Source of the DNA: Stegostoma tigrinum
Taxonomy: Eukaryota
Length of the DNA: 64,000 nucleotides
Assembly: GCF_030684315.1 (NCBI RefSeq)
Contig: NC_081356.1
Coordinates: 90,566,835 to 90,630,834, forward strand
Reading direction: 5' to 3'
The notes below the pieces were generated by a model. That model made no database searches, was not told where the DNA came from, and saw nothing but the letters and a program-made list of their open reading frames with translations. Positions 481 through 61,975 of this stretch are shown here, piece after piece (position 1 is the first letter of the stretch; each line of letters begins with the position of its first letter). Both the position numbers and the translations under genes were made by a program.

Positions 481-789
481 GGAAATTTTACCCAAAAAAA
501 CCCTTTAACCCTTTTATCCTTTTAAAAGGAATTTTCACCCTGCTTGAGCTGATGTTGAGAATTCTGTGTCATTGAATGATGCTGAGAAGCATCCTCCCCA
601 CTCTCCACCTTGCCCCTACACTTGCAACACTTTCATGTGTGATTGGGATTCATTTTTGCCTACTCACCTCTCATCTCCCTGCCATTATGGTACCACAGAG
701 AGCTCAGTTCAGAAGGAAGTGATTTTATTTGTCATACGGTTTGATATTGAGCGTATTCTTGCCTAAACCGAATTACCTTTCCCATTGCT

Positions 790-3406
790 GTCAGAGATAA
801 TGGGAACTGCAGATGCTGGAGAATCCAAGATAACAAAGTGTGGAGCTGGATGAATACAGCAGGCCAAGCAGCATCTTAGGAGCACAAAAGCTGATGTTTC
901 GGGCCTAGACCCTTCATCAGAGAGGGGGATGGGGAGAAGGTTCTGAAATAAATAGGGAGAGAGGGGGAGGCGAACCGAAGATGGATAGAGGAGAAGATAG
1001 GTGGAGAGGAGAGTATAGGTGGGGAGGTGGGGAGGGGATAAGTCAGTCCGGGGAGGACAGACAGGTCAAGGAGGCGGGATGAGGTTAGTAGGTGGGAAAT
1101 GGAGGTGCGGCTTGAGGTGGGAGGAGGGGATAGGTGAGAGGAAGAACAGGTTAGGGAGGTGGGGATAAGCTGGGCTGGTTTTGGGATGCAGTGGGGGGAG
1201 GGGAGATTTTGAAGCTTGTGAAGCCAACATTGACACCATTGGGCTGCACGGTTCCCAAGCGGAATATGAGTTGCTGTTCCTGCAAACTTCGGGTGGCATC
1301 ATTGTGGCACTGCAGGAGGCCCAGGATGGGCATGTCGTCTAAGGAATGGGAGGGGGAGTTGAAATGGTTTGTGACTGGGAGGTGCAGTTGTTTATTGCGA
1401 TCCGAGCGGAGGTGTTCTGCAAAGCGGTTCCCAAGCCTCTGCTTGGTTTCCCCAATGTAGAGGAAGCCACAGTGGGTACAGTGGGTACTGTATACCATAT
1501 TGGTAGATGTGCAGGTGAACATCTGCCGAATATGGAAAGTCATCTTGGGGCCTGGGATGGGGGTGAGGGAGGAGGTGTGGGAGCAAGTGTAGCACTTCCT
1601 GCGGTTGCAGAGGAAGGTGCCGGGTGTGGTGTGGTTGGAGGGGAGTGTGGAGCAGACAAGGGTGTCCCAGAGAGACTGGTCTCTCCAGAAAGCGGACGAG
1701 GGTGGGGATGGAAAAATGTCTTGGGTGGTGGGGTCGGAGTGTAGATGTCGTAAGTGTCGGAGGATGATGCGTTGTATCCTGAGGTTGATGGGGTGGTGTG
1801 TGAGAACGAGGGGGATTCTCTTTTGGCCAGTATTGGAGGGGTGGGGTATGAGGGATGTGTTGCAGGAAATGCGGGAGACACGGTTGAGGGCGTTCTCGAC
1901 CACTGCAGCGGGGGGGGGGGGGAGGGGGGATGTTGCAGTCCTTGAAGAACGTGGACATCTGGGATGTGCGGGAGTGGAATGCCTCATCCTGGGAGCAGGT
2001 GCGGTGGAGGCGAAGGAATTGGGAACAGGGGATGGAATTTTTGCAGGAGGGTGGGTGGGAGGAGGTGTAGTCTAGGTAGCTGTGGGAGTCAGTGGGCTTG
2101 AAATAGACATCAGTTTCTAGCTGGTTGCCTAAGATGGAGACAGAGAGGTCCAGGAAGGTGAGGGATATGTTGGAGATGGCCCAGGTGAACTTAAGGTTGG
2201 GGTGGAAGGTGCTGGCGAAGTGGATGAACTGTTTGAGCTCCTCTTGGGTGCAAGAGGCGGTGCCGATACAGTCATCAATGTAATGGAGGAAGAGTTGGAG
2301 TTTGGGGCCAGTGTAGGCACGGAAGAGGGGCTGTTCCACATACCCTACAAAGAGGCAGGCATAGCTTGGGCCCATGCGGGTACCCATGGCCACCCCCTTT
2401 GTCTGTAGGAAGTGGGAGGAATTGAAAGAGAAGTTGTTGAGGGTGAGGGCGAGGCGGATGAGGGTGTCGGTGGAGGGGGACTAGTTGGGCCTGCGGGACA
2501 GGAAGAAGCAGAGGGCCTTGAGGCCATCTGCATGAGGAATGCAGGTGTACAGGAACTGGACGTCCATGGTGAAAATGAGGTGTTGGGGACCTTGGTCCAG
2601 GCACCCACCCCCCTTGGTCCAGGAACTCCCCACCTATGTCCGGGACACTACCCACGCCCTCCTCCAGAACTTCCAATTCCCTGGCCCCCAACACCTCATT
2701 TGACTTTCTATATCAAGCAGATGTTGACCTGCACATCTACCAATGTGGTATACTGTATCCACTGAACCCATTGTGGCTTTCTCTACATTGAGGCAACCAA
2801 GCGGAGGCTTGGGGACCACTTGCAGAACACCTCCGCTTGGTTCGCAATAAACAACTGCACCTCCCATTGCGAACCATTTCAACTCCCCCTCCCATTCCTT
2901 AGACGACATGCCCATCCTGGGCCTCCTGCAGTGCCACAATGGTGCCACCCGAAGGTTGCAGGAACAGCAACTCATATTCCGCTTGGGAACCCTGCAGCTC
3001 AATGGTATCAATGTGGACTTCACAAGCTTCAAGATCTCCCCTTTCCCCACTGCATCCAAAACCAGCCCAGCTCATCCACCTCCCTGGCCTGTTCTTCCTC
3101 TCACCTATCCCCTCCTCCCACCTCAAGCCGCACCTCAATTTCCCACCTACTAACCTCATCCTGCCTCCTTGACCTGTCCGTCCCCCCTGGACCAGCCTAT
3201 CCCCTCCTTACCTCTCCATCTATACTCTCTTCTCCGGCTATCTTCTCTCTATCCATCTTCGGTCCGCCTCCCCCTCTCTCCCTATTTATTTCAGAACCCT
3301 CTCCCCATCCCCCTCTCTGATGAAGGGTCTAGGCCTGAAACATCAGCTTCTGTGCTCCTAAGATGCTGCTTGACCTGCTGTGTTCATCCAGCTCCACACT
3401 TTGTTA
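790..3406. mobile_element. Penelope-like retroelement (family A): minus arm 790-2590 plus inverted, internally deleted plus arm 2591-3406, with 17-bp TSD
   Basis: RT and GIY-YIG coding remnants and inverted terminal arms. The direct repeat TTACCTTTCCCATTGCT lies at 773-789 and 3404-3420. Confidence 0.92.
1151..2590 (-). pseudogene. 5'-truncated PLE ORF: reverse transcriptase, Cys linker and GIY-YIG endonuclease
   Basis: RT motifs TMDVQFLYT, AMGTRMGPSYA and YIDD; linker CNRRKCYTC; endonuclease NMVYSTHCTHCGFLYIGETKQRLGNRFAEH. Frameshifts occur near the poly-G at 1910-1929 and around 2400-2450. Confidence 0.9.
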
Positions 3407-4929
3407 CCTTTCCCATTGCTTACAGCTTTAAAAATTTTCCGTGAAGATTTCTTTAACATTGCCTTCTGGCCTCCTCACCATTATGGGGATTCAACAGGAT
3501 CCAGAATCTCCATTACAGCAGGCTCCAAAGAAATTGAATTTTCTATTTGGCAATATCCCCACATTTGAAATATTTAAAAGTATCCACTTAAATCACAGAA
3601 TTGGGAAGGTTTCACTGAATAGTTACACAGATAAAGTTAGATTAGTAAATACCTATGCTGATCCCAAACAACTATACAACCGACTCTCAATTTACTGTTC
3701 CTGCCCTAAATTATATCTCCCATAAATTCTCAACAAACCCGTGACCCTGTCCAGACACCCCCTTTATCTCTGGAACCTGACAAACCTCATTCCCTTGAAC
3801 TGAAACTATAGCCACACTGCTAATTCTGACACCACTTAACCCACCGCTGAACTCAACCCCTCCTTCTTCTGCTCCAGACCAATGCCCACTTCTCCTGCTG
3901 TCAGACCTGAACCCCACAGCTGGCTAATGCCCTCAAGTCTGATGCTTTGTTCTCAGATCTGACAGCCCTCGACCCTGAGGAACCTTATACACACAAGGAT
4001 CTGATGCCCCCAAGATTTGACACCAACCCATTCTGCTCTCCCCGCCAGAGCCAGAATTGCCCAATGCCCTGTCCCAACCTGTCTTCTCCCAACTGTTGAA
4101 TACCATGAGGGACACGTCAAAATGGAAATATGGCTCTGCATTTCTGAAGGAGCTTCTGTTAGAAATGAGGAGCTCTGTTGTTTTGTAAAGGGAGGAATGA
4201 AATGCCAATCGGCATGAGATTGTGACTCCTCAGAAAATGCAGCCCAGAAATTGAAGCAGTTTAACAGTCACTCACAAGAATGTATTCCATATGTCTTCAT
4301 GTGGAAAAAGTCTTACTACCCTATCCTTTTCAAATTTGATTGCATCTTCGCACACAATCTTTTTTGGGGAATAGTAGCAAAGTGTTGGAAGGGTTGTAGG
4401 TTGATTATTAATCTGTCTGTATGATGTCATATTAGCCATCATAGAATGGTGGAGCAGATTCATTGGGTCAAATGGCGTAATTCTGCAGCCACGTCTTATG
4501 ACCTAATGGTCAAGGACACTTCTGTTGCCAACAACATTGGAGTGAGACCAGAATCTGGGGTTTCTGGCTTGAGAGACAATGTTGCTGCTTGCTGAGCCAC
4601 AATGTATCCAATTTACAAATTAGGGTGGAACAAAGCCGGAAATAGATTTGAAATCAAGATGAATAAGCTTATGGTTTATGTGTTAGGACATTGGGAACAA
4701 ATGGAGTCAGGAAATAAAGGGGTGATGGTTTCCAAAATGTATATGGAATTGACCTCTCCCTCAGAATTTTGGATTCAAGTCATCGTTGGATGAAGATGGT
4801 ACAATGAAGAAAACTTCTGAGAAAGTGATCTCTTAAACAAAGAATGAGTACAATGTGGGAGTTCAGAGCCTGGAGACAAGAAGGCAGCTGTGGCAACCAA
4901 CAAAAGTGACATATTAAACATGTCTGTGT

Positions 4930-12960: not shown

Positions 12961-13792
12961 AAATGGAGGTGTGGCTTGAGGTGGGAGGAGGGGATAGGTG
13001 AGAGGAAGAACAGGTTAGGGAGGCGGGGACGAGCTGGGCTGGTTTTGGGATGCAGTGGGGGAGGGGGAGATTTTGAAGCTTGTCAAGTCCACATTGATAC
13101 CATTGGGCTGCAGGGTTCCAAAGCGGAATATGAGTTGCTGTTCCTGCAACCTTCGGGTGGCATCATTGTGACACTGCAGGAGGCCCATGATGGACATGTC
13201 ATCTAAGGAATGGGAGGGGGAGTTAAAATAGTTCACGACTGGGAGGTGTAGTTGTTTATTGCGAACCGGGTGGAGGTGTTCTGCAAAGTGGTCCCCAAGC
13301 CTCCGCTTGGTTTCCCCAATGTAGAGAAAGCCACACCGGGTACAGTGGATACAGTCTACCACATTGGCAGATGTGCAGGTGAACATCTGCTTAATATAGA
13401 AAGTCATCTTGGGGCCTGGGCTCCCCCCCCACTGCATCCCAAAACCAGCCCAGCTCGTCCCCACCTCCCTAACCTGTTCTTCCTCTCACCTATCCCCTCC
13501 TCCCACCTCAAGCTGCACCTCCATTTCCCACCTACCAACCTCATCCCGCCTCCTTGACCTGTCCGTCCTCCCCGGACTGACCTATCCCCTCCCCTCCTCC
13601 CCACCCATACTCTCCTCTCCACCTATCATCTCCTCTATCCATTTTCGGTCCGCCTCCCCCTCTCTCCCTATTTATTCCAGTTCCCTCCCCCCATCCCCCA
13701 CTCTGATGAAGGGTCTAGGCCCGAAACGTCAGCTTTTGTGCTCCTGAGATGCTGCTTGGCCTGCTGTGTTCATCCAACTTCACACTTTGTTA
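12961..13792. mobile_element. PLE family A, inverted two-arm fragment (minus 12961-13420, plus 13421-13792)
   Basis: GIY-YIG remnant ANVVDCIHCTRCGFLYIGETKRRLGDHFAEH and the same 3' terminal sequence as 790-3406. Confidence 0.9.
13703..13730 (+). ncRNA. Minimal type I hammerhead-ribozyme-like motif in the PLE terminus (intact core)
   Basis: CTGATGA-A-GGGT(CTAG)GCCC-GAAA-C-GTC: both core boxes, stem II and a palindromic ACGT in place of stem III. Confidence 0.65.
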
Positions 13793-14767: not shown

Positions 14768-15234
14768 TAGCTGTTGCTGTCAAGTGAAAAGGACTTCAAA
14801 TTTGTCGGACAATCATAAAGGTTAAGGGTAAAAGGCACTCCTACTCTCAGCCCTCTTTCCTGCTTCACTTGCAGTCATGAAACTCTGACAAAATTGAAGA
14901 CCCTATCGTAAGTGGTTTGTGCCTCATAGTTCAAATGAGGTGTGATGTGTTGCTATGTCTCTATTTCAGCCTCCAGTTCATAAACTCTAAGCTGAAGCTG
15001 CTTGAATTTCAAACACTTATCGCAGACACATTTTTCCTGGATAAAAATCGTATCCAGCTGTTCCCACATGCTGAAGTTATGATGTATCACCTACTCTGCC
15101 AATCTTTAATTTTCATTAGCTACCCAGTGACTTTATACAATGGTATTATGTTTTGTTTCCACATATTCTAAATGATGCTGACTGTCTCTGGCTGCTCCCT
15201 TCATTCATTATTCTTAATGATCTGACCATTTCTG

Positions 15235-15432
15235 GTCAGAGATAATGGGAACTGCAGATGCTGGAGAATCCAAGATAACAAAGTGTGGAGCTGGATGAAC
15301 ACAGCAGGCCAAGCAGCATCTCAGGAGACCAAAAGCTGATGTTTCGGGCCTGAAGGTTCTAGGCCCGAAACGTCAGCTTTCGTGCTCCTGAGATGCTGCT
15401 TGGCCTGCTGTGTTCATCTAGCTGCACACTTT
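15235..15432. mobile_element. Short PLE family A fold-back element with 14-bp TSD
   Basis: Two inverted copies of the PLE terminus. TGACCATTTCTGGT lies at 15223-15236 and 15432-15445. Confidence 0.9.
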
Positions 15433-16267
15433 GACCATTTCTGGTGTTTGCTTTCACCTACTCCTCTGGATCATGCTGACTTTCTCTGGGTGCATGTTGT
15501 TTTCACTGTTTGGTGAGAGCTTCCAATCGGCTCCCGAGGCCTGGAATGGAGTCACTGGCCAGCACCCTGTAAAATTAAACTTACAGGACTTCATGTTGGC
15601 CTCTCCTACCACTTGTTACATCAGAACAATGGCAGGATGAGGCCTTTAGCTGGACATTAAGGCCTATAAATCTATGGCAGGGCCAGGGTTGGGGAAATGA
15701 TATGGGACTGATACTGTTAATGACACACTGCCTCAAATGATACCCTCCTGCTCTCCTTCCTGCAGATGATGTGTTAAATTCAGCCCAATGTTTCTGCTCC
15801 TGATACATTAAAATGTTTCACTCATATCATTACAAAACTGTGAATTCTGAGATGGTGAAATTTCTTGATATTATTGAACAAGATGTTGCTCACAAACTGT
15901 TTACCTTAAATACTTGATCCAAACCAGAAGGTATAAAAACATTGTGCCAATACTTACTGCACCATTTCCATGCTTTTTTTGTCATGGTAAATATTATGAT
16001 GTTCTGAAAAAATGCCATAGGCTGTAATCTCTTGATTACTTTCCAACATATTGCCTCTCACTGCTTTGTAGTAGAACAATGACAGGCTGGACAGTTTTTT
16101 ATTGCATATTACCACTGAATGAGTGGACACAATGGTTTCTTAATTAATATGCTACCAGCCAGCCCAGTTGAAAGAGCTGATCCTTACCAAAAGGGAGTAA
16201 AAGTCTTGAAAGTTAGTCACTTCAGTTTTACAGGATGCCCACGGATGAAGCAATGCATAGGGTAGTG

Positions 16268-16733
16268 AACAAAGTGTGGAGCTGGACGAACACAGCAGGT
16301 CAAGCAGCATCTTAGGAGCACAAAAGCTGACGCTTCGGGCCTTATCCCTTCATCAGAAAAGGGGGAGGGGGAGAGGGTTCTGAAATAAATAGGGAGAGAG
16401 GGGGAGGCGGATCGAAGATGGATAGAGGCGAAGATAGGTAGAGAAGAGACAGACCAGTTAAAGAGGAGGGGATGGAGCCAGTAGAGGTGAGTGTAGGTGG
16501 GAAGGTAGGGAGGGGATAGGTCAGTCTGGGGAGGACGGACAGGCAAAGGGGCAGGATGAGGTTAGTAGGAAGGAAATAGGGGTACGGCTTGAGGTGGGAG
16601 GAGGGGATAGGTGAGAGGAAGAACATGTTAGGGAGGCGGGGATGAGTTGAGCTTGTTTTGGGATGCGGTGGGGGAGGGGCAATTTTGAAGCTTGTGAAAT
16701 CCACATTGATGCCATTGGGCTGCAGGGTTCCCA
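16268..16733 (-). mobile_element. 5'-truncated PLE family A
   Basis: C-terminal GTLQPNGINVDFTSFKI plus the terminus. Imperfect TSD CATAGG(G/C)TAGT(G/T)AAC at 16256-16270 and 16732-16746. Confidence 0.88.
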
Positions 16734-19700
16734 TAGGCTAGTTAACTGACCACAAGCTGTGAAGAGTACTTACCGAGGACTGCTGGGTATAGGCATCCCA
16801 ACTAGTCAGACTGTGTGTCAAGCTATAACTTCATTTGAATCAACACATGAATTCCACACTGGGATCATGTTAGTCCACCCAATGTATGTGCTTAGCAGTC
16901 ATCAAAGGAACCTGCATTTGGCTCCAAAAGGGCATGTCTGCTAACTGTTTGTTTGAAAAGGGAAGTTTTCCAATTTACAGTTTGGGTGATTCAAACTAAT
17001 GTTTATATCACAAGGTCTGCAATTAAATAAAATTGCACCTTGATAGCAATGAAAGAGCAGAAATCTTCTACTGCGAACATAAATAATATCAAAACCATTT
17101 TCTAAAGCACCAGCCTTTTATCTTCAGTGCATGAAACAATCACAGACCTGTATCATGCAAAGTCTGCAATCCAGGGAAAGACAAGTATAACAGAAGGCAC
17201 TTAAAATTCTCAGATCTCAATGCTTGTTTTTAATGTAACCACAATTTTTTCTTGAGAGTGTATCTATCTATTTGAGTGTGACAGTTAGACTAATTGCTGT
17301 CTTATGTTGTGGTGTGAATCCTTTTTGGTTTGTGGTTGGGGTGGAAAGCTGCCATCAATCCTCTTTGCTATGCTGAGTCTCAGGGCCTCTCTGTTCACCG
17401 GTGGCGGATTAAAAACTACTATTAAAAGTTCCAGCAGCATTTGTGACAGGATCATGGCATGGTCCCCCAGACTGAGTCCATATAAGTTGCCTTGCTGCCT
17501 CGACTGGAACATGGTTGAACAATTGTTCCTCAGATTTTAATTAAATGTGACCAATGAGCTGTAGACAGCAACTCGGCCTTGGGTGCTCACTAGTGACAAA
17601 GCTTAGAAATATGTGCTGTGTGATATAGGTACTTCTGAAAATATAATTGTCATTTTGATTCTTAAAATAGTTACAAACGGATTTTGGTTTCAATTCTTAG
17701 CAGGTGGCTTCTGTTTATATCATTTTTAAGAAAGTATATAATTTGGTTATGTGCCTAACAGGATAAATATTATTTTAAATAATTGCACATTTATGCCATT
17801 CAGTTTAGAATAGACAGAGAAAACATACCAGGGACACTTGTTTCGTTCTGACCTCAGTTCATGATAATCAGGGCATCAGTTCAGGAGAAAAACTTCTTTT
17901 TGGCAGAAAGATCAAATTTTCTTTTCAGAAGAGCAATCTCCCAGAAGATGTGTTTTAGATTATAAAGTCTTCAGGCTGTGAGAGTTTGTGTAGAAGTTTT
18001 CAAGTTGCTAGACGTAGAACACAGAACAATACAGCACAGGAACAGGCCCTGTGGGCTGACCACGATGCTATTCTAACCTAATTCCATCTACCTGCATTTG
18101 GTCTGTATCCCTCTAATCTCTACCTGTTCATGTGCCTGTCTAAATGGCTCTTAAACTTTGCTATTGTGCTTCTACCACCTCCCCAGCAGCTTATTCCAGA
18201 TCAGTGCTACACTTTGTGTAAAAAACTGACTGTCACATCCCTTTAACTTGTTCCCACTCTCACCTTAAATTTATGCTCCCTAGTATTTGACATTTCCATG
18301 CTGGGAAAGAGCCCCTGATTGTCCACCCATCTAAGCCCCTCATGTTTTTATACACTTCTATCACGTCGCCCCTCAGCCTAGAATGCTCTGGCGAAAACAA
18401 TCCAAGTTTGTCCAACCTCTCCTCATAGCTAATACACTCCAATCCAACATCCTGGCAAGCCTCTTCTGCTCTCTCTCCAAAGCTTCCATGTCCTTCCTAT
18501 AGTGCAGCAAGCAGAACTGCACACAACACTCCAAATGTGGACTGCCCAAAGTGTTATATAGTTGCAATATGATTTTCCAACTTTTATACTCAAGGCCCTA
18601 ATTGAGGAAGGCAAGCATGCTGTATGTCTTCATTATCACCTTATTCAATTTCGTTGCCATTTTCAGGGAGCTACGACTTAAACCTCAAGTTCATCTATAT
18701 ATCAATGCTCCTCAGGCTCCATCCATTTACAGTGTACTTTGCCATTCCATTTAATCCCCCAAAATGCATCGGCTCACATTTCTTTGGCAAACGTTCCAGT
18801 TAATCTGTATCCTGTTTCATCTTTTGACATCCTTCCACACTATCCACAACTCCACCAATTTTCGTGTCATGTGCAAATTTTTTTAATCAGACCACCGACA
18901 TTTTCGTCCAAATCATTTTTATGTATTCCAAACAACAGAGGTCCTGGCACTGATCCTTGTGGAACACCACTGGTGATAGGTCTTCAGTCAGAAAAACACC
19001 AGTCCACAATAACCCCTGTCTTCTTTGGCCAAGCCAATTTTGTATACAACTTGTTAATTCACCATGGGTTCCATGTGATTTGGTCTTCTGGACAAGCCTA
19101 CCATGAAGGATCTTGTCAAAGGCCTTGCTCAAGCCCATGTGGACAACATCTACTGCCTTACCCTCATTGACCATCTTTGTCACTTCCTCAAAAAACTCAA
19201 TCAAGTTTGTGAGACAAGACCTCCCTTGCATAAAGCCATGTTGACAATCCCTAATAAGTTCATTCTTCTCCAAATTCAAGTATACCCTGTTCCTAAGAAT
19301 ATTCTCCAATAATTTCCATACCACTGATATAAGGCTCACCAGCCTATAATTACCTGATTATCCCTGTTGCCCTTCTTGAACAAAGGAACAACACTGGCTA
19401 TTTTCCAGTCTTTTGGGACTTTACCTGTGGCTAAAGAAGATGCAAAAGATGTATGTCAATGCTCTGCAATCACCTCCCTTGCCTCCTTCACTATATTGGA
19501 ATAGATCCCATCATGCTTTGGGGACATATCTACCTTAATGCGGTTCAAGACACCCAACACCTCCTCCTTCTTAACATCAACATGCCTTAGAGTATCAAAA
19601 GCACTTTCTAAACTTAGCATCATCCATGTCTTTATCATTGGTGAATATTGATGAAAATACTCATTAAGGACCTCATTCACTTACCCTGGCTTCGTGTATA

Positions 19701-20594: not shown

Positions 20595-20840
20595 AGCAGA
20601 AACAAAGTTGCTGGAAAAGCTCAGCAGGTCTGGCAGCATCTGTGGAGGAGAAAACAGAGTTAACGTTTCGGGTCTGGTGACCCTTCCTCAGAACTCAGTA
20701 CCTTCTGAGGAAGGATGACCAGATGCAAAGCGTTAACCCTGTTTTCTCGTCCACAGATGCTGCCAGACCTGCTGAGCTTTTCCAGCAACTTTGTTTTTGT
20801 CCCTGATTTACAGCATCCGCAGTTCTTTTGGTTTTTATTT
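20595..20840. mobile_element. Short PLE family B fold-back element
   Basis: Inverted arms (AAAGTTGCTGGAAAAGCTCAGCAGGTCTGGCAGCATCTGTGG and its complement). Imperfect TSD TTTC(T/C)TTAGG at 20585-20594 and 20838-20847. Confidence 0.8.
20662..20691 (-). ncRNA. Minimal hammerhead-like motif, family B (intact core)
   Basis: Minus strand reads CTGAGGA-A-GGGTC(ACCA)GACCC-GAAA-C-GTT. Confidence 0.6.
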
Positions 20841-20949: not shown

Positions 20950-22440
20950 ATAAGATGGTCTCAGCAGCCCATGAAGGAAAACTGGGAAGAATCCATTATT
21001 ATAAGAAATTAAAAACTTGTTAGAAGTGATATTGTTTTCTGGGTTTATATATCTTTGAAGGATATTGCTGAGAAAAAGTTTGAAACTTTATTTTGCTGAA
21101 TGCAATAAGAATATTTTAAACTGTCCTCTTTATAGTTTTGCTTTTGTTTTTCTTTTGTAATATAAACTTCTTGTTTTAAAGAACATTGGCAACTCAATGT
21201 GAATGCATTCAGTGATTAGTCACCATTCTACTTAGCTGCAAAAATTAATCTCATGATCCATCAAGCCAGGTTTCACTCTGGGATCTAACTTGTCCAGTAT
21301 TACCATCAGTTGAGTTTGTAATGAAGTGGAGCCTCTTGGCAGGATACGAATTCATGGAATATAAGAGGGATCCACATTTGGTTTTAAAGGAGCAAGAACA
21401 TCGAGATGCTGTACATAAAACAGGCCTGTTGCTGTGAAGTATATTGCACAGTTTGTGCTTTCAAAATGGTTGTGCATTGATCAGAGTTTCTGGGAATAGA
21501 AGACATAACAGTGTATTTTTTGAAATATTTGACTAAGGCTGTGCAGAGTGAATTAAGAGATTAGTTGAAGGTAGACATAGATGCATGATGTCATAAGGAT
21601 GAGATACTTGAAGTAATTACCCATTATTCCAAATTAAGGGGAGGAAAAGCTGAAATAGGGATGTCATCACAAGAAATAGCTGACATTCATTGAGAAATGG
21701 AAAAAAATTGAATTGAAAAAAGACAATGACAGCAACGAACAATATTGAATTTATGAATAGAGATAGTAGGAACTGTTGATCTTGGAGAATTTGAGATAAC
21801 CAGGTGTAGGGCTGGATGACGTCATTTCTGAAGAAGGGTCCAGACCCGAAATGTCAGTTTTCCTGCTCATCTGATGCTGCTTGGCCCACTGTGTGCATCC
21901 AGCTCTACACCTTATTATCTTGAATTTATGAAATTTGAATTTCAAAGAGAGGAATATCAGACAATATTACTTAGAGAGTGGAAAATATTAGAATAAAGGA
22001 GACAAGAAGGGGTAGTAGACTACAGGATTATTCTGATTTCAGTGAGAGATTTGATTTAACTAGAAATTTACATTTAGTGGCCAAATTTACAGAGGTTGGA
22101 ATGGAAAGATATTTCACTTCATTTTTAAAGATAACTCAAAACATGGAGTGGCCAGAGGATATTTATTTGGGCCTTAATGTTACGATGTTTTGATACAGGT
22201 TGAGCAATGACTGTGTATGCCAATTTGTGACAGGAACAATGAGAAGACAGTGAAACTGCTTATGAGCTTGTCTCGAAACCTTATTAATTAAAGAGTAGGA
22301 GTATAAGAAATAAACTTAATTAGGCATGTGTAGAATTTGCAAGAGAACAAATAATGTTATGGAATTCATGGTTTCAATTGCTGAAGTTAGAGAGAAAAGT
22401 CGAGAAAGTAAGAAAAGAATCTATGGTTATACAAGAAGTC
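20950..22440 (+). mobile_element. Decayed Gypsy (Gmr1-like) LTR retrotransposon: LTR end and gag remnant
   Basis: The ORF at 21978-22193, ERFDLTRNLHLVAKFTEVGMERYFTSFLKITQNMEWPED, resembles the vertebrate Gypsy gag motif F.....I.LVP.F.E..V..YF..FEK.A....WP. A weak tRNA-Pro-PBS-like TGGAGCCTCTTGGCAGGAT starts at about 21327. Confidence 0.65.
21758..21921. mobile_element. Short PLE fold-back element (older family A variant) with 13-bp TSD
   Basis: TTGAATTTATGAA lies at 21745-21757 and 21920-21932. Core CTGAAGAAGGGTCCAGACCCGAAATGTC at 21828-21855. Confidence 0.85.
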
Positions 22441-30586: not shown

Positions 30587-31532
30587 AGTCAACATGATTT
30601 GGATGAAGGAGTGGAAGGGTGGATTAGTAAGTTCATGGATGAAACAAAGGTGGGTTGTGTTGTGGAAAGTGTGGAGAGGTCTTCTGAGTTACAAGGGACA
30701 TTGATCGGATGCAGAGCTGGGCCGAGAAGTGGCAGATGGAGTTTAACCCTGAAAAGTGTGGGATGATTCATTCTGCAAGGAAAAACTTGAAAGCAGAATA
30801 TAGGGTTAACAGAAAAATTTTTGGAAGTGTGGAGGAGGACAGGGGTCTTGGGGTTCATGTCCACAGTTTCCTGAAAGCTGACACCCAGGTGGATAGAGTT
30901 GTAAGGAAGGTGTACGGTGTGTTAGCTTTCATTAATAGAGGGATTGAGTTCAAGAGCCATGAAGTTATGCTCCAGCTATACAAAAGCCTGTTTTGGCCAC
31001 ATTTGGAATATTGTGTCCAGTTCTGGTCGCTTCATTACAGGAAAGATATGAGACCGTTGGAAAAGGTGCAGAGGAGATTTACCAGGATGTTGCCTGGAAT
31101 GGAGGGAAGGTATAATGAAGTAAGGTTGAGAGAGCTAGGGCTTTTCTCTTTAGAACGATGAAGGATGAGAGGTGACTTGATAGAGGTGTACAAAATGATC
31201 AGAGGTATAGGTAGGGTAGACGGCCAGAGACTTTTTATTTATGAGGGGGCATAATTTTAAAGTGAGTGTAGGTAGCTATCAGGGAGACGTCCGAGGTAGG
31301 TTCCTTACTCAGAGAGTGGTCAGGGCGTGGAATGCATTGCCAGAGCGGGTAGTAGAGTCAGCCTCATTAGGGACATTTAAGCAGCTATTAGATAGGTATA
31401 TGGATAATAATATAAGTTAGGGTTGGAGGTTAGATAGACCTCAGAATTGGGGTAAATGTTTGGCATAACATTGTGGGCCGAAGGGCCTGTACTGTGCTGT
31501 ACTGTTGTACGTTCAATGTTCTATGTTCTATG
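30587..31532 (+). mobile_element. 5'-truncated CR1/HER1-type LINE
   Basis: WAEKWQMEFNPEKC...PHLEYCVQFWS...LEKVQRRFTRMLPG...LGLFSLER, with tail (GTTCTAT)n. Confidence 0.93.
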
Positions 31533-34125: not shown

Positions 34126-34928
34126 TTCATTCAGCAACAAATCAATGTATTTGATTTAAATAAGATTACCTTTCTCCAACTATATGAGGACACACACAGT
34201 CCATTTCTCTTCTTTTTGACAAACATTGTACACACATTAGCCAGTGCTTTTCAAACATTTGTGTCTGGACCTTTGCAACTTATAATTGGAAATGGATTAA
34301 GGTTAAGTCCAGCAACTGCAGGCCCATCATTTTAACCTCAGTGATGTGCAAGCTTTCAGAAACGATAATTTGGGATAAAATTACCAATGTTCAGACAAAT
34401 GTTGATGAATTAAGGAGAGCAAACATAGATTTGCTAAGGGAAAATTAAGTGTAACTAGTTTGATTGAGTGTTTTGGTGAGGAAACAGAGAGGATTGGAGT
34501 TTTGTCCAGTTGTCAAGATAGAAAAAAGGCATTTGATAAGGGTGTCACATATCACCAAATTATTGGTGATAAATCAGTTTAAAAGGGACAATGGCAAAAA
34601 TGTTTGGATGCATGAGTGGCAGCAAACAGAATAATGAATGGTTGTTTTTCAGCTTGGAATATGTAAAGTATGTAAATGGTATAGAGTTGGGATACTGAGA
34701 GTCCTCATCATTGACTCCAACCCAATGAAGTGGGGTCAAACATGGGCAAAGAAATCGCCTGCTGATTACCACTTAGTGTTCCCCTTTGGCCAATGAATGA
34801 ATACGTATTCATATTGACAACCACTGAGTGTGGAAATGGCATAAAACGTATTCTTGTTGAGGGACTTCAATGTCCAATATCAAGAGTAGCTTGGCAGCAC
34901 AATAGCTGATCAAGTCCTACAGATGGTA

Positions 34929-35071
34929 GATAACAAAGTGTGCAGCTGGATGAACACAGCAGGCCAAGCAGCATTTCAGGAGTGCTCCTGGGATGCTGCT
35001 TGGCCTGCTGTGTTCATCCAGCTACACACTTTGTTATCTTGGATTCTCCAGCATCTGCAGTTCCCATTATC
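34929..35071. mobile_element. Short PLE family A fold-back element
   Basis: Inverted arms. Imperfect 16-bp TSD CCTA(C/T)AGAT(G/A)GTAGAT at 34916-34931 and 35072-35087. Confidence 0.88.
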
Positions 35072-35149
35072 CCTATAGATAGTAGATTGGGTCTGCATGA
35101 AATGGTAATGGAACCGTCAAGAGGGAATACTTGTAACTTGGATTGTGGG

Positions 35150-35668
35150 TGGGATTGTTGATTTGTTCGCTGAGCTGATAGTTTGGCTTGTCACCATTCT
35201 AGGTAACATCATCAGTGTGCCTCTGATGAAGAATTGTTTATCTGTCCCACTTGTTATTTATGTGGTCAGGTTTGATGTGGTGGTTGGCCTCATTTCTGGT
35301 TCTGCTTCGTGGTGATTGGTAGATGGGGTCTGTTTCCACATGTTTCCATACACTCAGACAAAGAAGGCCACCAATTCAACTGGGACACCTTAACCATCCT
35401 AGGACAAGCCAACCAAAGACATGCTTGGGAATTCCTGGAGGCCTGGTACTCAACTCCATCAACAAACATGTGGAAATAGACACCATATACCAACCACTAC
35501 GAAGTAGAACTGGAAATGAGGCCAACGACCACATCAAACTGGACCGCGTAAATAATAAGTGGGACAGGCCAACAACACTTTATTGGAGGCGCACTGAAGA
35601 TGTTACCTAGTACAGTGACAACATGTCTAAAAAAACCTTACCAGTTCAGTGAACAAATCAGTAACCCC
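35150..35668. mobile_element. PLE family D (Penelope/Poseidon-type), inverted two-arm fragment
   Basis: The plus arm encodes GHQFNWDTLTILGQANQRHAWEFLEAWY..SINKHVEIDTIYQPL, a GIY-YIG C-terminus. Bases 35150-35345 are its inverted copy. Confidence 0.8.
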
Positions 35669-36479
35669 ATCAAGAGGGAAAATAACTTAATTCATTTTGT
35701 CTTCACCAGGCTACTTGCTGCACATACATTCATCCACGACAGTATCAGTAAGAGTAAGTATTGCACAGTTCTTGTGGAAACAAAGTCCAATCTTCACATT
35801 GAGGATACCCTCTATCATGTTATGTGGTTCTATCACTGCCCTCAATGGAACACGCTCGAACAGACCTAGTGACTCACAACTAGGCATCCATGTGCTAGTG
35901 CGTGTCATCAGAACAGCAGAATTGTATTCAAGCATATTCTGTAACTTCTTGTGCTGACATTCTCCCCACTCTTTGATTACTATCTTGTTGGGAGATCAAG
36001 TCTGGTTCAGTGAAGAGTGTGGGAGAGCACGCCAGTGGTAGCACTGAGCATATTCAAATATGAGAACTACTTGCATGTTAAACAGCAGAAATAGTATGTA
36101 ATAGACAGGTTTAAACAATCCCATAACTAATGGATCAGATCTAAAATATGCAGTCATACCACATCCCATTGTAATTACTGGTGGAAAATAATGCAGTTAA
36201 AAGGAGGGGGAAAGTCCTCAAATAGCTGAAATCCAAGGATAAGGTGAGAATGAAGGCCCTTGACATCAAGGCAACATTTGCCAGAGTATGGCGCCAAGGA
36301 GCCCCAATAAAACTAGAGTCAATGGGAACAAGGGGGTAAGCTCCCCGCTAGTTTGTCATACCTGATATGAAAAAGGAGGATTTTTCTTCTTGGAGGTCAG
36401 TTATTTCAGTTCCAGGACATTTCTACAGTGCTTTTGAAACGACATATTTTCACCTTATTATGTTGACAGAGCCTACACC

Positions 36480-39004: not shown

Positions 39005-39730
39005 AAGGGCTATGGGGAGTGTGCGGGTAAGTGGAGTTGAAATGCCCATCATCCATGATTAAATGGTGGAGCGGACTAGATGGGCCAAATGGCCTTACTT
39101 CCACCCCTATGTCTTATGGCCTTATGGTCTTATTAAACCCCAAGGCACTCCACTCAGACATGACTCAAAAAACAAATAGTAATCATCTTCTGGGGTAACA
39201 AGGTGTAGAGCTGGATGAACACAACAGCCAAGCAGCATCAGAGGAACAGGAAAGCTGACATTTCAGACCTAGACCCTGCTGTGTTCATCCAGCTCTACAC
39301 CTTGTTACCTCAGTAAGCATCTTCTGCCTTATTCATTAAGAATGACGAAAGATATCATCGAAACCTACAAAATTCTAACAGGACTAAACAGGGTGAATGC
39401 AAGAAGGATGTTCCTGATGAATGGGACGTCCAGAACCAGAAGTTACAGTTTCAGGATACGGGGTAGTTTATAAGGATTGATGTGAGGAAAAATTTCTTCA
39501 TCCAGAGTGTGGTGAGCCTGTGGAATTCTTTGTCACAAAAAGCAACGGAGGCCCAAATATTGAACGTTTTCAAGGAGAGGTCTGATATAATTATTCAGAT
39601 AAAAGGAATCAAAAGGTATGTGGAGCAATTGGGAACACAGTACTGAGTTGGATCATACTAAATCAGAGAACAGCCTTGAAGAGCCAAATGGCCAACTTCT
39701 GCTCCTATTTTCCATGTTATATTTCTATGA
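39005..39730 (+). mobile_element. Two CR1-type 3' ends (about 39005-39132 and 39340-39730)
   Basis: Tails (GTCTTATG)n and CCATGTTATATTTCTATG, with IETYKILTGL coding remnant. Confidence 0.8.
39193..39311. mobile_element. Short PLE fold-back element
   Basis: Inverted GGTAACAAGGTGTAGAGCTGGATGAACACA arms. TSD AGTAA(T/G)CATCTTCTG at 39178-39192 and 39312-39326. Confidence 0.87.
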
Positions 39731-45139: not shown

Positions 45140-48100
45140 CATCCCTTTTTATTCATTAATGAGATTTGGGCATCAGAGGTAGGATCAACACTTACTGCCC
45201 ATGCTTGTTGACTTTGTAAAAATGATGATGAGCCACCTTGTTGACCCACTCCAGTCCATGTGATACACTCAAATCTGTTAAGGAAGGAATTCAAGGATTT
45301 TGACCCAACAATGCTGAAGGAGTAGTGATATATTTCCAATGCCGGATGGTCAATCAGTCATAGAGTTATATAGCATGGAAACAGGTCAACTTGTTTGCAC
45401 TGACTAGATTTCCTAAATTAATCTAATCCCAATTGCCACCATTTGGCCCATAACCCTCTAAAGCTCTCTTATTCAAATACCCATCCAGATGCCTTTTAAG
45501 TGTTGTATTTGTACCTGTCTCCACTACTTCCTCTGGCAGCTCATTCCACCCATGCATCACCCTTTCCCTTTTAAATCTTTTCCCTCTCACCTTAAACCTC
45601 GGCTCTCTAGTTTTGGACTCCTCTAACCTGGGGAAAACACTGTGACTATTCACCCCATCCATGCTTTTCATGATTTTATAAACCTCCACAAGGTCACCCC
45701 TCAGCCTCCAATGTTCCAGGGAGAAAAGCTCCCAGCCTATTGAGACTCTCCCTGTAGGTCAAACCCTCCGTTCTTAGCAACATTCTTGTAAATCTTTTCT
45801 GCACCCTTTCAATTTTGACATCTTTCCTATAGCAGGAAGACAAGAATTGAAGGCAGTATCCCAAAAATGTCCTCACCAATGTCCTGTACAACCACAAAAT
45901 GATGTCCCAACTCTTATATTCAATGCACTGACAAATGAAGGCAAGCATGCCAAAATCCTTCTTTACCTTTACCCTGTCTACCTCCGACTCCACTTTCAAA
46001 GATCACATGCACCACAATATCTCTTTGTTTGGCAATGCTCCCCCAGGGCCTTACCATTTACTCAATAAGTCCTGCTCTGGTTTGCCTTACCAAAATGCAA
46101 CACCTCACATTTATCTAAATGAAACTTGCAGATGATTGTGTTTCTACGTATCTGCTGTCCTTGTCCTTCTGGATGGTTGTGATTCGTGGGTTTGTATGGC
46201 ACTGACTAAGTAGCCTTGGTGCAACTTGCACCTGGTACACACTGAAGCTACTGAGCATCATTAAGGACTGAATATTTGTCAATGTGATGCCATCCATGTG
46301 GGCTGCTTTGGCTTGGATGGTGTAAAGCTCCTTAAGTGTTGTTGGAGGTGCACCCATCCAGGCAAGTGGGGAATATTCTATAACACTTCTGTATTAAGCC
46401 CTGAAGATGGTGGCCAGGTTTTCAGGGATAAAAAGGTGAGTTACACACTGCAAGATGCATGAACTCTGACCTGCTCTTGCATCTACTACCTTTATTTGTA
46501 TATGATTAGTTCATTTCAGTTTCTGTCAACAATGATGAAAGTTAGGAATTCAAAGATGGCATTGCATTGAATGGCAACAGGTGATGGTTAGGTTCTCTCT
46601 TCTTCAAGATGGTCATTGCCTGGCACTTGTGTAGTGTAAACATTACTTGGGCTTGTCTGCCCAAATGTTTACATTGCCCTGGTTCGCTGCATTTGAGCAT
46701 GGACTGTTTCAGTAACTGATGGGTCACAAATAGTGCTGTACATGTGCAATTATAAGCAAACCTTAAAAGGGTGGTAGATAAGAAGCTAAAAGGAGGGCAG
46801 GTCATAATGGTTGGGCCTAAGCATGTCTATAAGAAACTTCTGTAGAGATCACCTGGAACTGATGTAACTGACCTCCAATAACCATGACCACTTTCCTTTG
46901 CCATCTACAATCCGACCCCACCACCCAAGACATTTATCCATCCCCACCCTTGTCTGCCTTCCGGAGAGACCACTCTCTCCGGAACTCCCTTGTCCACCCC
47001 ACACTCCCCTCCAACCCCACCACACCCGGCACTTTCCCCTGCAACCGCAGGAAGTGCTACACTTGCCCCCACACCTCCTCCCTCACCCCCATCCCAGGCT
47101 TTGCAGAACACTTCCGCTCGGTTTGCATTAAACAACTGCACCTCCCAGTCACGAACCATTTTAACTCCCCCTCCCATTCCTTAGTCCACATATCCATCCT
47201 GGGCCTCCTGCAGTGCCAAATGATGCCACCCGAAGGTGGCAGGAACAGCAACTCATACTCTGCTTGGGAACCCTGCAGCCCAATGGTATCAATGTGGACT
47301 TCACAAGCTTCAAAATCTCCCCTTCCCCCACTGCATCCCAAAACTAGCCCAGCTCGTCCCCGCTTCCCTAACCTGTTCTTCCTCTCACCCATCCCCTCCT
47401 CCCACCTCAAGCCGCACCTCCATTTCCCACCTACTAACCTCATCCCACCTCGTTGACCTGTCCGTCCTCCCCACACTGACCTATCCCCACCTACACTCTC
47501 CTCTCCACCTATCTTCTCCTCTATCCATCTTCGGTCTGCCTCCCCCTCTCTCCCTATTTATTTCAGAACCCTCTCCCCATTCCCCTCTCTGATGAAAGAT
47601 CTAGTCCCAAAACATCAGCTTTTGTGCTCTTAAGATGCTGCTTGGCCTGCTGTGTTCATCCAGCTCCACACATTGTTATCTCAGATTCTCCAGCACCTGC
47701 AGTTCCCATTATCTCTGACCACTCCCCTTTGCATTAGATATGACTTCAACTAGCAAAGAGTTTTCCCTGATTCATATTGACTCTAGTTTAGCTAGGGCTT
47801 CTTGGTATCACTTAGTCAAATATCAAGGCAGTCATTCTCTGCTCCTCTCTTGATTTCAACTCATGCTTTTCCATGATTGAGCAAAGGATGTAATAATGCC
47901 AGTAACTGCGTGGCTCTGTTGGAATCCAAACCGTGTATCAGTGAGCAGGCTATTGCTCAGCAAATGCAGCTTGACAGCACTGTTGATGATACTTTCCATC
48001 ATTTTGCTGATGATTGAGAGCACACTGATGGAGCAATTTTAGGTAAATAGGATTTCTCCTATTTTTCATGTACAGGACATACATGTGTCACTTTTCACAT

Positions 48101-61509: not shown

Positions 61510-61975
61510 CATAATGTTGGAAGTTACAGGACACCAGGTTATAGTCCAACAGGTTTATTTGAAGTCACAAGCTTTTGGAGCTCTGCTCCTTTGTCATAGA
61601 ACATAGAACATAGAATATTACAGCACAGTACAGGCCCTTTGGCCCTCGATGTTGTGCCGACCTGCCATACCGATCTCAAGCCCATCTAACCTACACTATT
61701 CCATGTACGTCCATATGCTTGTCAAATGATGACTTAAATGTACCTAAAGTTGGCGAATCTACTACTTCTCAGTTGAAGAGAATCAGTGTGAAAACTTGTG
61801 ATTTCAAATAACTTGGTAGGATAATAACCTGGAACAAAAAAAGGAGCTGTTGGAAAAGATCAGCAGGTCTGACAGCATCTATGAAGAGAAAATCAGAGTT
61901 ATCGTTTTGGGTTTGGTGACCCTTCCTCAGATCATAACCTGGTGTTGTGTAATCTCTTACTTTGTCCATTCTAAA
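61510..61975. mobile_element. Nested cluster: PLE family C arms, young CR1 tail (61597-61768) and PLE family B terminus (61830-61931)
   Basis: CACCAGGTTATAGTCCAAC and its inverted counterpart ATAACCTGGTG flank a (CATAGAA)n CR1 tail and a family B end with ATAACCTGG duplication (61824-61832 and 61934-61942). Confidence 0.7.

What the first reader, a model, noticed from the sequence alone, without database searches (positions are those of the whole stretch)
13703..13730. Loop-less minimal hammerhead cores shared by about four shark Penelope-like families
Seen in sequence: wherever that part of the PLE end is retained it shows CTGANGA + one extra nt + stem II + GAAA-type box + palindrome. Family A reads CTGATGA-A-GGGTCTAGGCCC-GAAACGTC (13703 intact; variants at 893-920-, 3317+, 16329-16356-, 21828+, 47589+). 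Family B reads CTGAGGA-A-GGGTC-ACCA-GACCC-GAAACGTT (20662-20691-). Family C has stem GGAGC/GCTCC followed by AAGCT (about 61570-61596-, decayed). Family D has CTGATGA-T-GTTACC/GGTGAC (about 35190-35214- and 35594+). Stem II changes sequence while keeping its pairing. Established: PLEs are known to carry minimal type I hammerheads proposed to act as dimers. Inference: stem III has no loop at all here (A-C-G-U-H), so cleavage after GUC/GUU could only occur with two copies pairing through the ACGU/AGCU palindrome. That would be an obligate-dimer ribozyme processing tandem transcripts.
Basis: partly seen in the sequence, partly recalled or inferred. Interest (0 to 1): 0.7.

Follow-up and report, generated by a model that had tools for sequence, protein, structure and literature searches.

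The report
Penelope hammerheads at transcript's capped start
These are real copies of a tiny, loop-less self-cutting-RNA motif already described from Penelope-like jumping genes, and the ends of their shortened genomic copies suggest that the motif likely forms the capped front of the element's RNA and is likely cut only part of the time.

Summary
The motifs are real. A blind 1.31 Mb genome sample gave 99 descriptor hits against 0-2 per shuffle, and family A alone has 71,315 exact copies. Only 2 of the 10 listed window copies are intact.

A, B and D sit at PLE ends; C is unproven. Stem I in A is only 2 bp.

The insertion ends add more. In A and B they pile up 0-7 nt upstream of the core, with an extra G (71 and 45 of 100, against 4 of 100 at a control) and a TATA-like box about 30 nt upstream. 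The capped transcript likely starts 4 nt before the core, and uncut RNA is likely the usual template. A smaller spike at the scissile bond (147 against 5-72 at neighbours) may record cleavage in vivo; the AGCT palindrome confounds it. Dimer-dependent cutting was not testable. This scan noted the same pattern before, on other DNA and in this genome.

The parts
13669..13675 (+). TATA-like box (TATTTAT), 30 nt upstream of the inferred start
   Evidence: at -30 in 92 and -31 in 25 of 127 family A copies that hold it (284 examined)
13699..13702 (+). Inferred transcription start (13699) and 5' strand of stem I; only the last two bases pair
   Evidence: pile-up of 5' ends with an extra G; start site inferred
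13703..13730 (+). Intact family A minimal hammerhead: core 13703-13709, extra A 13710, stem II 13711-13722, GAAA 13723-13726, palindrome ACGT 13726-13729, predicted cut 13730|13731
13731..13792 (+). Sequence after the predicted cut up to the first insertion end (+62), likely the first RT start site
   Evidence: 3' ends bimodal at about +62-69 and +97-106
12961..13420 (-). Inverted, 5'-truncated endonuclease-end fragment belonging to the same insertion
1151..2480 (-). Broken RT and GIY-YIG coding region of family A with a CX4CX2C linker (Neptune type)
   Evidence: (RVT_1 E 0.0017, GIY-YIG E 0.0018, both below Pfam cut-offs)
893..920 (-). Family A hammerhead, G16.2>A; left arm of a head-to-head insertion 782-3410
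3317..3344 (+). Family A hammerhead, C11.1>T and G16.2>A; right arm of the same insertion
16329..16356 (-). Family A hammerhead, decayed (A15.1>G)
21828..21855 (+). Older A2 subfamily hammerhead; the copy begins about 5 nt upstream of the core
47589..47616 (+). Family A hammerhead, decayed (G10.1>A, G12>A)
20662..20691 (-). Intact family B hammerhead; copy begins at 20695, preceded by a G at 20696 where long copies have C
20705..20734 (+). Decayed family B hammerhead, opposite arm of the 20597-20799 inversion
61901..61930 (-).
61569..61596 (-). Decayed family C hammerhead remnant (AGCT palindrome)
35190..35214 (-). Family D remnant, GAAA box lost
35594..35620 (+). Family D remnant, GAAA box decayed; inverted partner of the previous one

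Best explanation
These are minimal type I hammerhead motifs in the terminal repeats of Penelope-like retrotransposons, and in families A and B the motif likely forms the first 32-34 nt of a capped transcript that is likely copied mostly uncut and cut only part of the time. Shown: the motifs, their place between the endonuclease end and the tail, two 3' ends about 37 nt apart, a pile-up of 5' ends at the foot of stem I with an extra G, and a TATA-like box 29-31 nt upstream of that point. Inferred: a TATA/initiator promoter in the pLTR starts transcription 4 nt before C3 (C in a pyrimidine run in A1; the A of TCAGTT in B), so stem I can only use the first four bases. RT starts internally at +62 or +100 on the front copy, runs off the cap and copies it as G, which makes the many 95-135 bp stubs. 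Starting on the rear copy 3,528 nt downstream gives long copies and regenerates the promoter. Cleavage would need a partner hammerhead through the ACGU/AGCU palindrome (the rear copy or a second RNA) and probably the element's protein; it would decap the RNA and leave the minority of copies that begin at the scissile bond.
For: Motif. PLE context: RT and GIY-YIG in one 642-aa frame, endonuclease homology 200-300 nt upstream of A and B hammerheads, RT/EN-like remains upstream of D, identical hammerhead regions 3,528 nt apart (128/128), ORF ATG 135-138 nt after the cut in 5 of 16 loci. 5' ends in the blind sample within C3-7..C3: A1 34 of 91 at risk, A2 40 of 67, B 24 of 33; per-nt hazard 0.047-0.091 against 0.003-0.009 at the cut and 0.003-0.016 upstream (on the first 920 kb). 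All 14 intact C loci also begin within about 8 nt of the core. Genome-wide AT-flanked junctions: 347 at C3-4 against 12 at -63 and 3 at -9. Junction base G in 71 of the first 100 (A1) and 45 of the first 100 (B) against 4 of 100 at the cut site; hand counts, Fisher p 6e-25 and 3e-12. Excluding AG|CT fold-backs: 14 of 30 against 4 of 45, p 0.0003. An extra G at full-length L1 junctions is attributed to the cap in PMC11702581 (one passage). TATA spacing. Cut-site junctions 147 against 14 at +1, 11 at +2, 5 at -1, 72 at the AG-matched +16 of which 34 carry the native G. Uncut template, two RT starts and protein-assisted cutting were shown for the Anolis element (PMC11167929).
Against: No RNA 5' end was observed; the start site rests on DNA junctions alone. 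57 of the 71 G junctions in A1 read AG|CT, which fold-back also makes (4 of 12 at control), and many G junctions are arms of inversions. The A2 subfamily shows no clear G in the small sample. B's box rests on 4 of 9 box-bearing copies (92 examined). Family D shows no pile-up at the core (6 of 6 core-bearing copies are long). The cut site coincides with an AGCT palindrome; 46 of the first 100 cut-site flanks end in AA, compatible with fold-back; tail-to-head mini-arrays also start at +10 and +16; controls at -3 and +10 gave 68 and 45, inflated by mutated natives, and control patterns differ in CpG content and flank rule. In the blind sample the cut site shows no excess (7 of 126, 6 of 100, 1 of 47). 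The A monomer prefers a fold that pairs the core (-11.4 against -4.2 kcal/mol). PMC11167929 found no RNA reads ending at its cut site.
Confidence: 0.65

Rival explanations
1. One reading: the main job is dimer-dependent cutting of tandem transcripts at both repeats, giving a unit-length RNA that is circularised and copied round to make the partial tandems.
For: No stem III loop in any family; paired hammerheads 3,528 nt apart; a 289-bp six-unit array with a hammerhead in each unit; spike at the cut site. Proposed in PMC4209133.
Against: Most short copies read through the cut and end with a cap-like G, so their template was uncut. A read-through linear transcript explains the repeats equally well. 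Published in vitro rates are low, and 8 of 9 Xenopus dimer elements did not cleave (10.64898/2026.07.22.740005).
Confidence: 0.3
2. The pile-up at the foot of stem I marks an RT stop, a fold-back or an endonuclease cut there, not a transcription start; the G comes from palindromic joining.
For: About half the short copies are head-to-head inversions (A1 24 of 45, A2 33 of 58, B 16 of 24); AG|CT joins dominate in A1 and occur at a control site.
Against: In B a fold-back would add T, not G, yet G is 45 of 100; G stays enriched in A1 without the AG|CT class; a TATA-like box sits at the expected distance in two families with different upstream sequence.
Confidence: 0.2
3. The motif hardly cuts in vivo and is kept as a protein-binding or RNA-pairing signal (two templates held by the palindrome for a dimeric RT, giving head-to-head insertions); the cut-site spike is an artefact of the AGCT palindrome.
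For: 2-bp stem I and an inactive preferred fold in A; cutting was not needed for insertion in vitro and both target strands were extended in PMC11167929; frequent inversions.
Against: The whole catalytic core, including two mutable CpG sites, is kept in the young masters of separate lineages; T-flanked junctions are 38 of the first 100 of 147 at the cut against 14, 6 and 9 at +1, +2 and +16.
Confidence: 0.25

Closest known systems
[quoted passage not shown]
   Same: Same core, no helix III loop, extra nucleotide between 9 and 10.1, G10.1-C11.1, palindromic 15.2-16.2, short helix I, mostly single truncated copies, opposite-strand pairs, dimer model.
   Different: No shark, skate, Callorhinchus or Chondrichth match in the 2 supplement files searched; the parts read do not map insertion 5' ends or a transcription start.
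Luense, Weinberg and Breaker, short-stem-III hammerheads that cleave as dimers (not held; seen only as cited in PMC6765202, passages)
   Same: PLE-associated hammerheads with a diminished stem III that need dimers.
   Different: Its species list and kinetics could not be read; it may already include these families.
Anolis Poseidon element PAc, Frangieh et al. 2024 (PMC11167929; parts 1-2 of 4 read)
   Same: Two internal RT start sites define the tail; uncut RNA is the template; hammerhead in the pLTR.
   Different: Its ORF starts inside the ribozyme, here 138 nt after the cut; no RNA ends at its cut site were found; family A has the Neptune linker.
Drosophila virilis Penelope promoter, Schostak et al. 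2008 (PMC2377424; passages)
   Same: Transcription starts in the pLTR; a partial tandem is needed; 2-bp helix I (PMC4209133).
   Different: Internal TATA-less promoter, with a 46-nt exon and an intron before the hammerhead; here a TATA-like box lies upstream and the hammerhead likely begins at +5.
Animal non-LTR retrozymes derived from PLEs (10.64898/2026.07.22.740005; parts 1 and 3 of 5 and passages read; supplements closed)
   Same: Tandem hammerhead-bearing units from pLTRs, reported in one Chondrichthyes genome (mean 363 bp); similar arrays occur in this genome.
   Different: The window copies are dispersed stubs and inversions, not arrays.

Membership tests
PLE minimal hammerhead (PMC4209133) | Core CUGANGA, GAAA and NUH around a stem II of 4 bp or more | tested here: met
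   intact in 2 of 10 listed window copies
PLE minimal hammerhead (PMC4209133) | Extra nucleotide before stem II and G10.1-C11.1 pair | tested here: met
   61 of 62 descriptor hits have the extra base; G-C in all four families
PLE minimal hammerhead (PMC4209133) | No loop III; palindromic 15.2-16.2 | tested here: met
   ACGU in A, B, D and AGCU in C
PLE minimal hammerhead (PMC4209133) | Short helix I (consensus three pairs) | tested here: met
   B 4, C 4, D 3 bp; A only 2 bp, as in the published Drosophila virilis and Culex rows
PLE minimal hammerhead (PMC4209133) | Located in a PLE terminal repeat | tested here: inconclusive
   Met for A, B, D; no coding sequence upstream of any C copy held
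PLE minimal hammerhead (PMC4209133) | Self-cleavage as a dimer, not as a monomer | not testable with these tools
   Only an indirect cut-site spike
Neptune-type PLE (family A) | One ORF with RT and C-terminal GIY-YIG | tested here: met
   L043, 642 aa: RVT_1 E 7.8e-6 and GIY-YIG E 0.003, both below Pfam cut-offs
Neptune-type PLE (family A) | CX2-5CxxC linker before the endonuclease (PMC8557442, passages) | tested here: met
   CX4CX2C in window 1151-2071(-)
Neptune-type PLE (family A) | pLTR, 30-40 bp tail, inverted 5'-truncated copies | tested here: met
Neptune-type PLE (family A) | Placement in an RT phylogeny | not tested
   No tree was built
Penelope/Poseidon-type PLE (family D) | RT and GIY-YIG without the linker | tested here: inconclusive
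   Broken translations show RT- and endonuclease-like motifs and no linker by eye; two stop-free fragments gave no relevant Pfam hit
Rfam hammerhead families | Match to a curated covariance model | tested here: not met
   No hammerhead family among 8 matches at E up to 5
Non-LTR retrozyme | Tandem units each with a hammerhead | tested here: not met
   Not in the window; met at locus L031 elsewhere

The most novel reading that the evidence does not exclude
In these Neptune-type elements the hammerhead is a dimer-gated self-decapping switch at the very start of a TATA-driven capped mRNA: uncut RNA is translated and copied, cut RNA loses its cap, and the genome's hundreds of thousands of stubs record both states to the nucleotide, a first in vivo footprint of PLE hammerhead cleavage in the papers searched.
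Probability: 0.4. Interest if true: 0.7.

Novelty: new member of a known kind. Interest (0 to 1): 0.42.

Why it matters
The motif and the dimer idea are in print, so the finding as written adds families to a known list. What matters is the record in the insertion ends. The role of PLE hammerheads is called unclear in PMC8557442, and PMC11167929 found no RNA ends at the cut. A young family with 71,315 exact copies gives nucleotide-level predictions for where the transcript starts and where it is cut, which one CAGE or 5'-OH sequencing run could test. Searches for such a report found none: terms 'Penelope-like, shark, hammerhead', 'Penelope, pLTR, transcription start, hammerhead, truncated', 'Penelope-like, TATA, capped, ribozyme'; subscription papers are not covered.

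Tried and rejected
Rfam: no hammerhead match; the miRNA matches are inverted PLE tails below gathering scores. Formal covariation count: MAFFT put rows C and D out of register, so pairs were read by hand and no statistic is given. RNA evidence: no RNA holder listed; four runs guessed as RNA, contigs only, showed related sequence but no usable start, end or splice joint. A DNA search with the 5' region returned nothing; a pattern found 3,102 copies. (G 1,295, A 250, T 225) were set aside as the main cap test because about half of the listed G rows can be inversion arms. My first idea, that most stubs would begin at the cut site, was rejected. An ORF start at the ATG 18 nt after the cut was rejected: it closes after 27 codons. 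No intact full-length ORF was found; the one full-length copy read breaks at codon 530. No library paper matched 'non-templated G, capped, retrotransposon, reverse transcription'. The Luense paper and the bioRxiv supplements could not be read and may bear on novelty.

Full report
Observation. The ten listed sites are there. At 13703 the sequence reads core, extra A, stem II, GAAA, C, G, U, C, then AG, with the predicted cut at 13730|13731. Only this copy and the B copy at 20662-20691(-) are intact; the rest carry core changes, many of them CpG transitions, and both D copies have lost the GAAA box. Rfam has no hammerhead match. In 132 blind 10-kb stretches a strict descriptor found 99 motifs, 64 with extra base and palindrome, against 0-2 in each of ten shuffles. 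Exact genome-wide counts are 71,315 for A, 7,538 for D and 23 for C.

What the carriers are. Family A lies about 260 nt behind a broken RT-GIY-YIG region in the window, with the CX4CX2C linker that PMC8557442 assigns to Neptune and Nematis. One full-length copy has identical hammerhead regions 3,528 nt apart, a front repeat reaching 39 nt upstream of the core, and an ORF broken at codon 530. The ATG lies 135-138 nt after the cut in the 5 of 16 loci that keep the front hammerhead. B follows an endonuclease 28-41% identical to A's in 4 of the 5 rows reported; the fifth is an A element next to a B stub. D follows RT- and endonuclease-like remains without the linker. No C copy held has coding sequence upstream. 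A's 3' ends cluster at +62-69 and +97-106, the two-ended tail explained for the Anolis element by two RT start sites.

Structure across families (pairs read by hand). Stem II: A G-C, G-C, G-C, U-G; A2 and B change the fourth pair to U-A; C has A-U and G-C at pairs three and four; D has U-A, U-G or C-G, A-U. Stem I: the first pair is U-A in A and B, C-G in C, A-U in D; length 2, 4, 4 and 3 bp. The palindrome is ACGU, or AGCU in C. All pairs stay canonical, but A and B share stem II, so three lineages carry the signal. The A monomer folds best with its core paired (-11.4 against -4.2 kcal/mol).

What is known. It lists the extra base, the G10.1-C11.1 pair and the palindrome, and reports no monomer cleavage and low dimer cleavage. 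PMC6765202 cites a second study for dimer cleavage. The finding as written is therefore known; these families are not in the supplement files searched.

Where the copies begin. Anchoring on the tail, so that the ribozyme does not select the hits, 5' ends fall within 7 nt upstream of C3 in 34 of 91 (A1), 40 of 67 (A2) and 24 of 33 (B) copies at risk, against 7 of 126, 6 of 100 and 1 of 47 within 3 nt of the cut (both arms of an inversion count separately). These copies were made from RNA that was whole across the cut site. Genome-wide, AT-flanked junctions number 347 at C3-4, 12 at -63 and 3 at -9. The base before the junction is G in 71 of 100 listed for A1 and 45 of 100 for B, where long copies have C, and in 4 of 100 at the cut site. 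Most A1 cases read AG|CT, which fold-back can make; without them G is 14 of 30 against 4 of 45. In B fold-back would give T. In C, 7 of 14 copies that keep the heptamer upstream of the core have G before it. An extra G marks the cap at full-length L1 junctions. After a lead from earlier finding e1-8639351 I measured a TATA-like box: at -30 or -31 in 117 of 127 box-bearing A copies, at -29 or -30 in 5 of 9 for B. The start bases fit the TCAGT initiator in B and a pyrimidine (TCT-type) start in A1, as described in PMC6954239 (passages). I infer a capped start 4 nt before the core (about 0.75). B's stem I is exactly those four bases. D does not show this pattern.

The cut site. AT-flanked junctions at the scissile bond number 147, against 14 (+1, T flank), 11 (+2), 5 (-1, A flank), 45 (+10) and 68 (-3), the last two inflated by mutated natives, and 72 at the AG-matched +16, 34 of them with the native G. 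That is a 4- to 10-fold excess with no added G, as expected for a 5'-OH end. But the site is also an AGCT palindrome that favours fold-back, mini-arrays start at other positions too, and the blind sample is too small to show the spike. I put cleavage in vivo at about 0.55.

Mechanism. Shown: motif, context, tail, end distributions, box spacing. Inferred: transcription from the pLTR starts at the ribozyme's foot; RT priming on the front copy runs off the cap and yields stubs, often two joined head to head (about half); priming on the rear copy yields long copies and restores the promoter. Cleavage would need a second hammerhead and probably the protein, would remove a capped 32-34 nt piece, and leaves a minor trace. 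Whether it serves circle formation, translation control (compare PMC13725137, abstract only) or nothing essential is open.

Verdict. Real, known in kind, and new only in membership; the junction evidence makes an open question testable. Interest 0.42.

Noticed in passing
L031:7310-9095 (G000:C2, about 31.063-31.065 Mb): Six 289-bp units, 99% identical, each with an intact family A hammerhead, the tail and the ORF start fused to the 3' end by an internal deletion; two variants repeat every three units. Retrozyme-like. Pairs spaced 305-363 bp suggest many more.
   Followed up: partly
window 13749 onward; L021:1100-1200(-): A pyrimidine run and AG precede an ATG 18 nt after the cut in A, and a similar run in B; in A it opens a 27-codon ORF ahead of the main ATG. 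Possible splice acceptor or uORF.
   Followed up: no
window 15226-15433, 20597-20799, 34928-35074, 39190-39313, 35150-35669: Head-to-head inversions of element ends form long hairpins; two of them give the below-threshold Rfam miRNA matches.
   Followed up: partly
family D copies, e.g. L152, L155, L221: An ATAAATA box lies 46 nt upstream of C3 in 24 of 26 box-bearing copies (55 examined), hinting at a start about 16 nt before the core.
   Followed up: no
G000:C4:123608246-123608466 and C26:45407492-45407587: Mini-arrays of 61-62 bp whose unit runs from the predicted cut to the first tail end; similar arrays start at +10 and +16.
   Followed up: partly
window 18887-19357(-): An unrelated RT fragment (RVT_1 E 5.5e-12); (TTCTATG)n ends near 31500, 37400 and 61600 look like LINE tails (label recalled).
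   Followed up: no
all four hammerhead families: C11.1-G12, and in A, B and D also C15.2-G16.2, are CpG sites, so inserted copies lose the core quickly (intact 69 of 161 A1, 16 of 100 A2, 22 of 70 B, 0 of 48 C, 4 of 10 D1, includes query-selected loci).
   Followed up: partly
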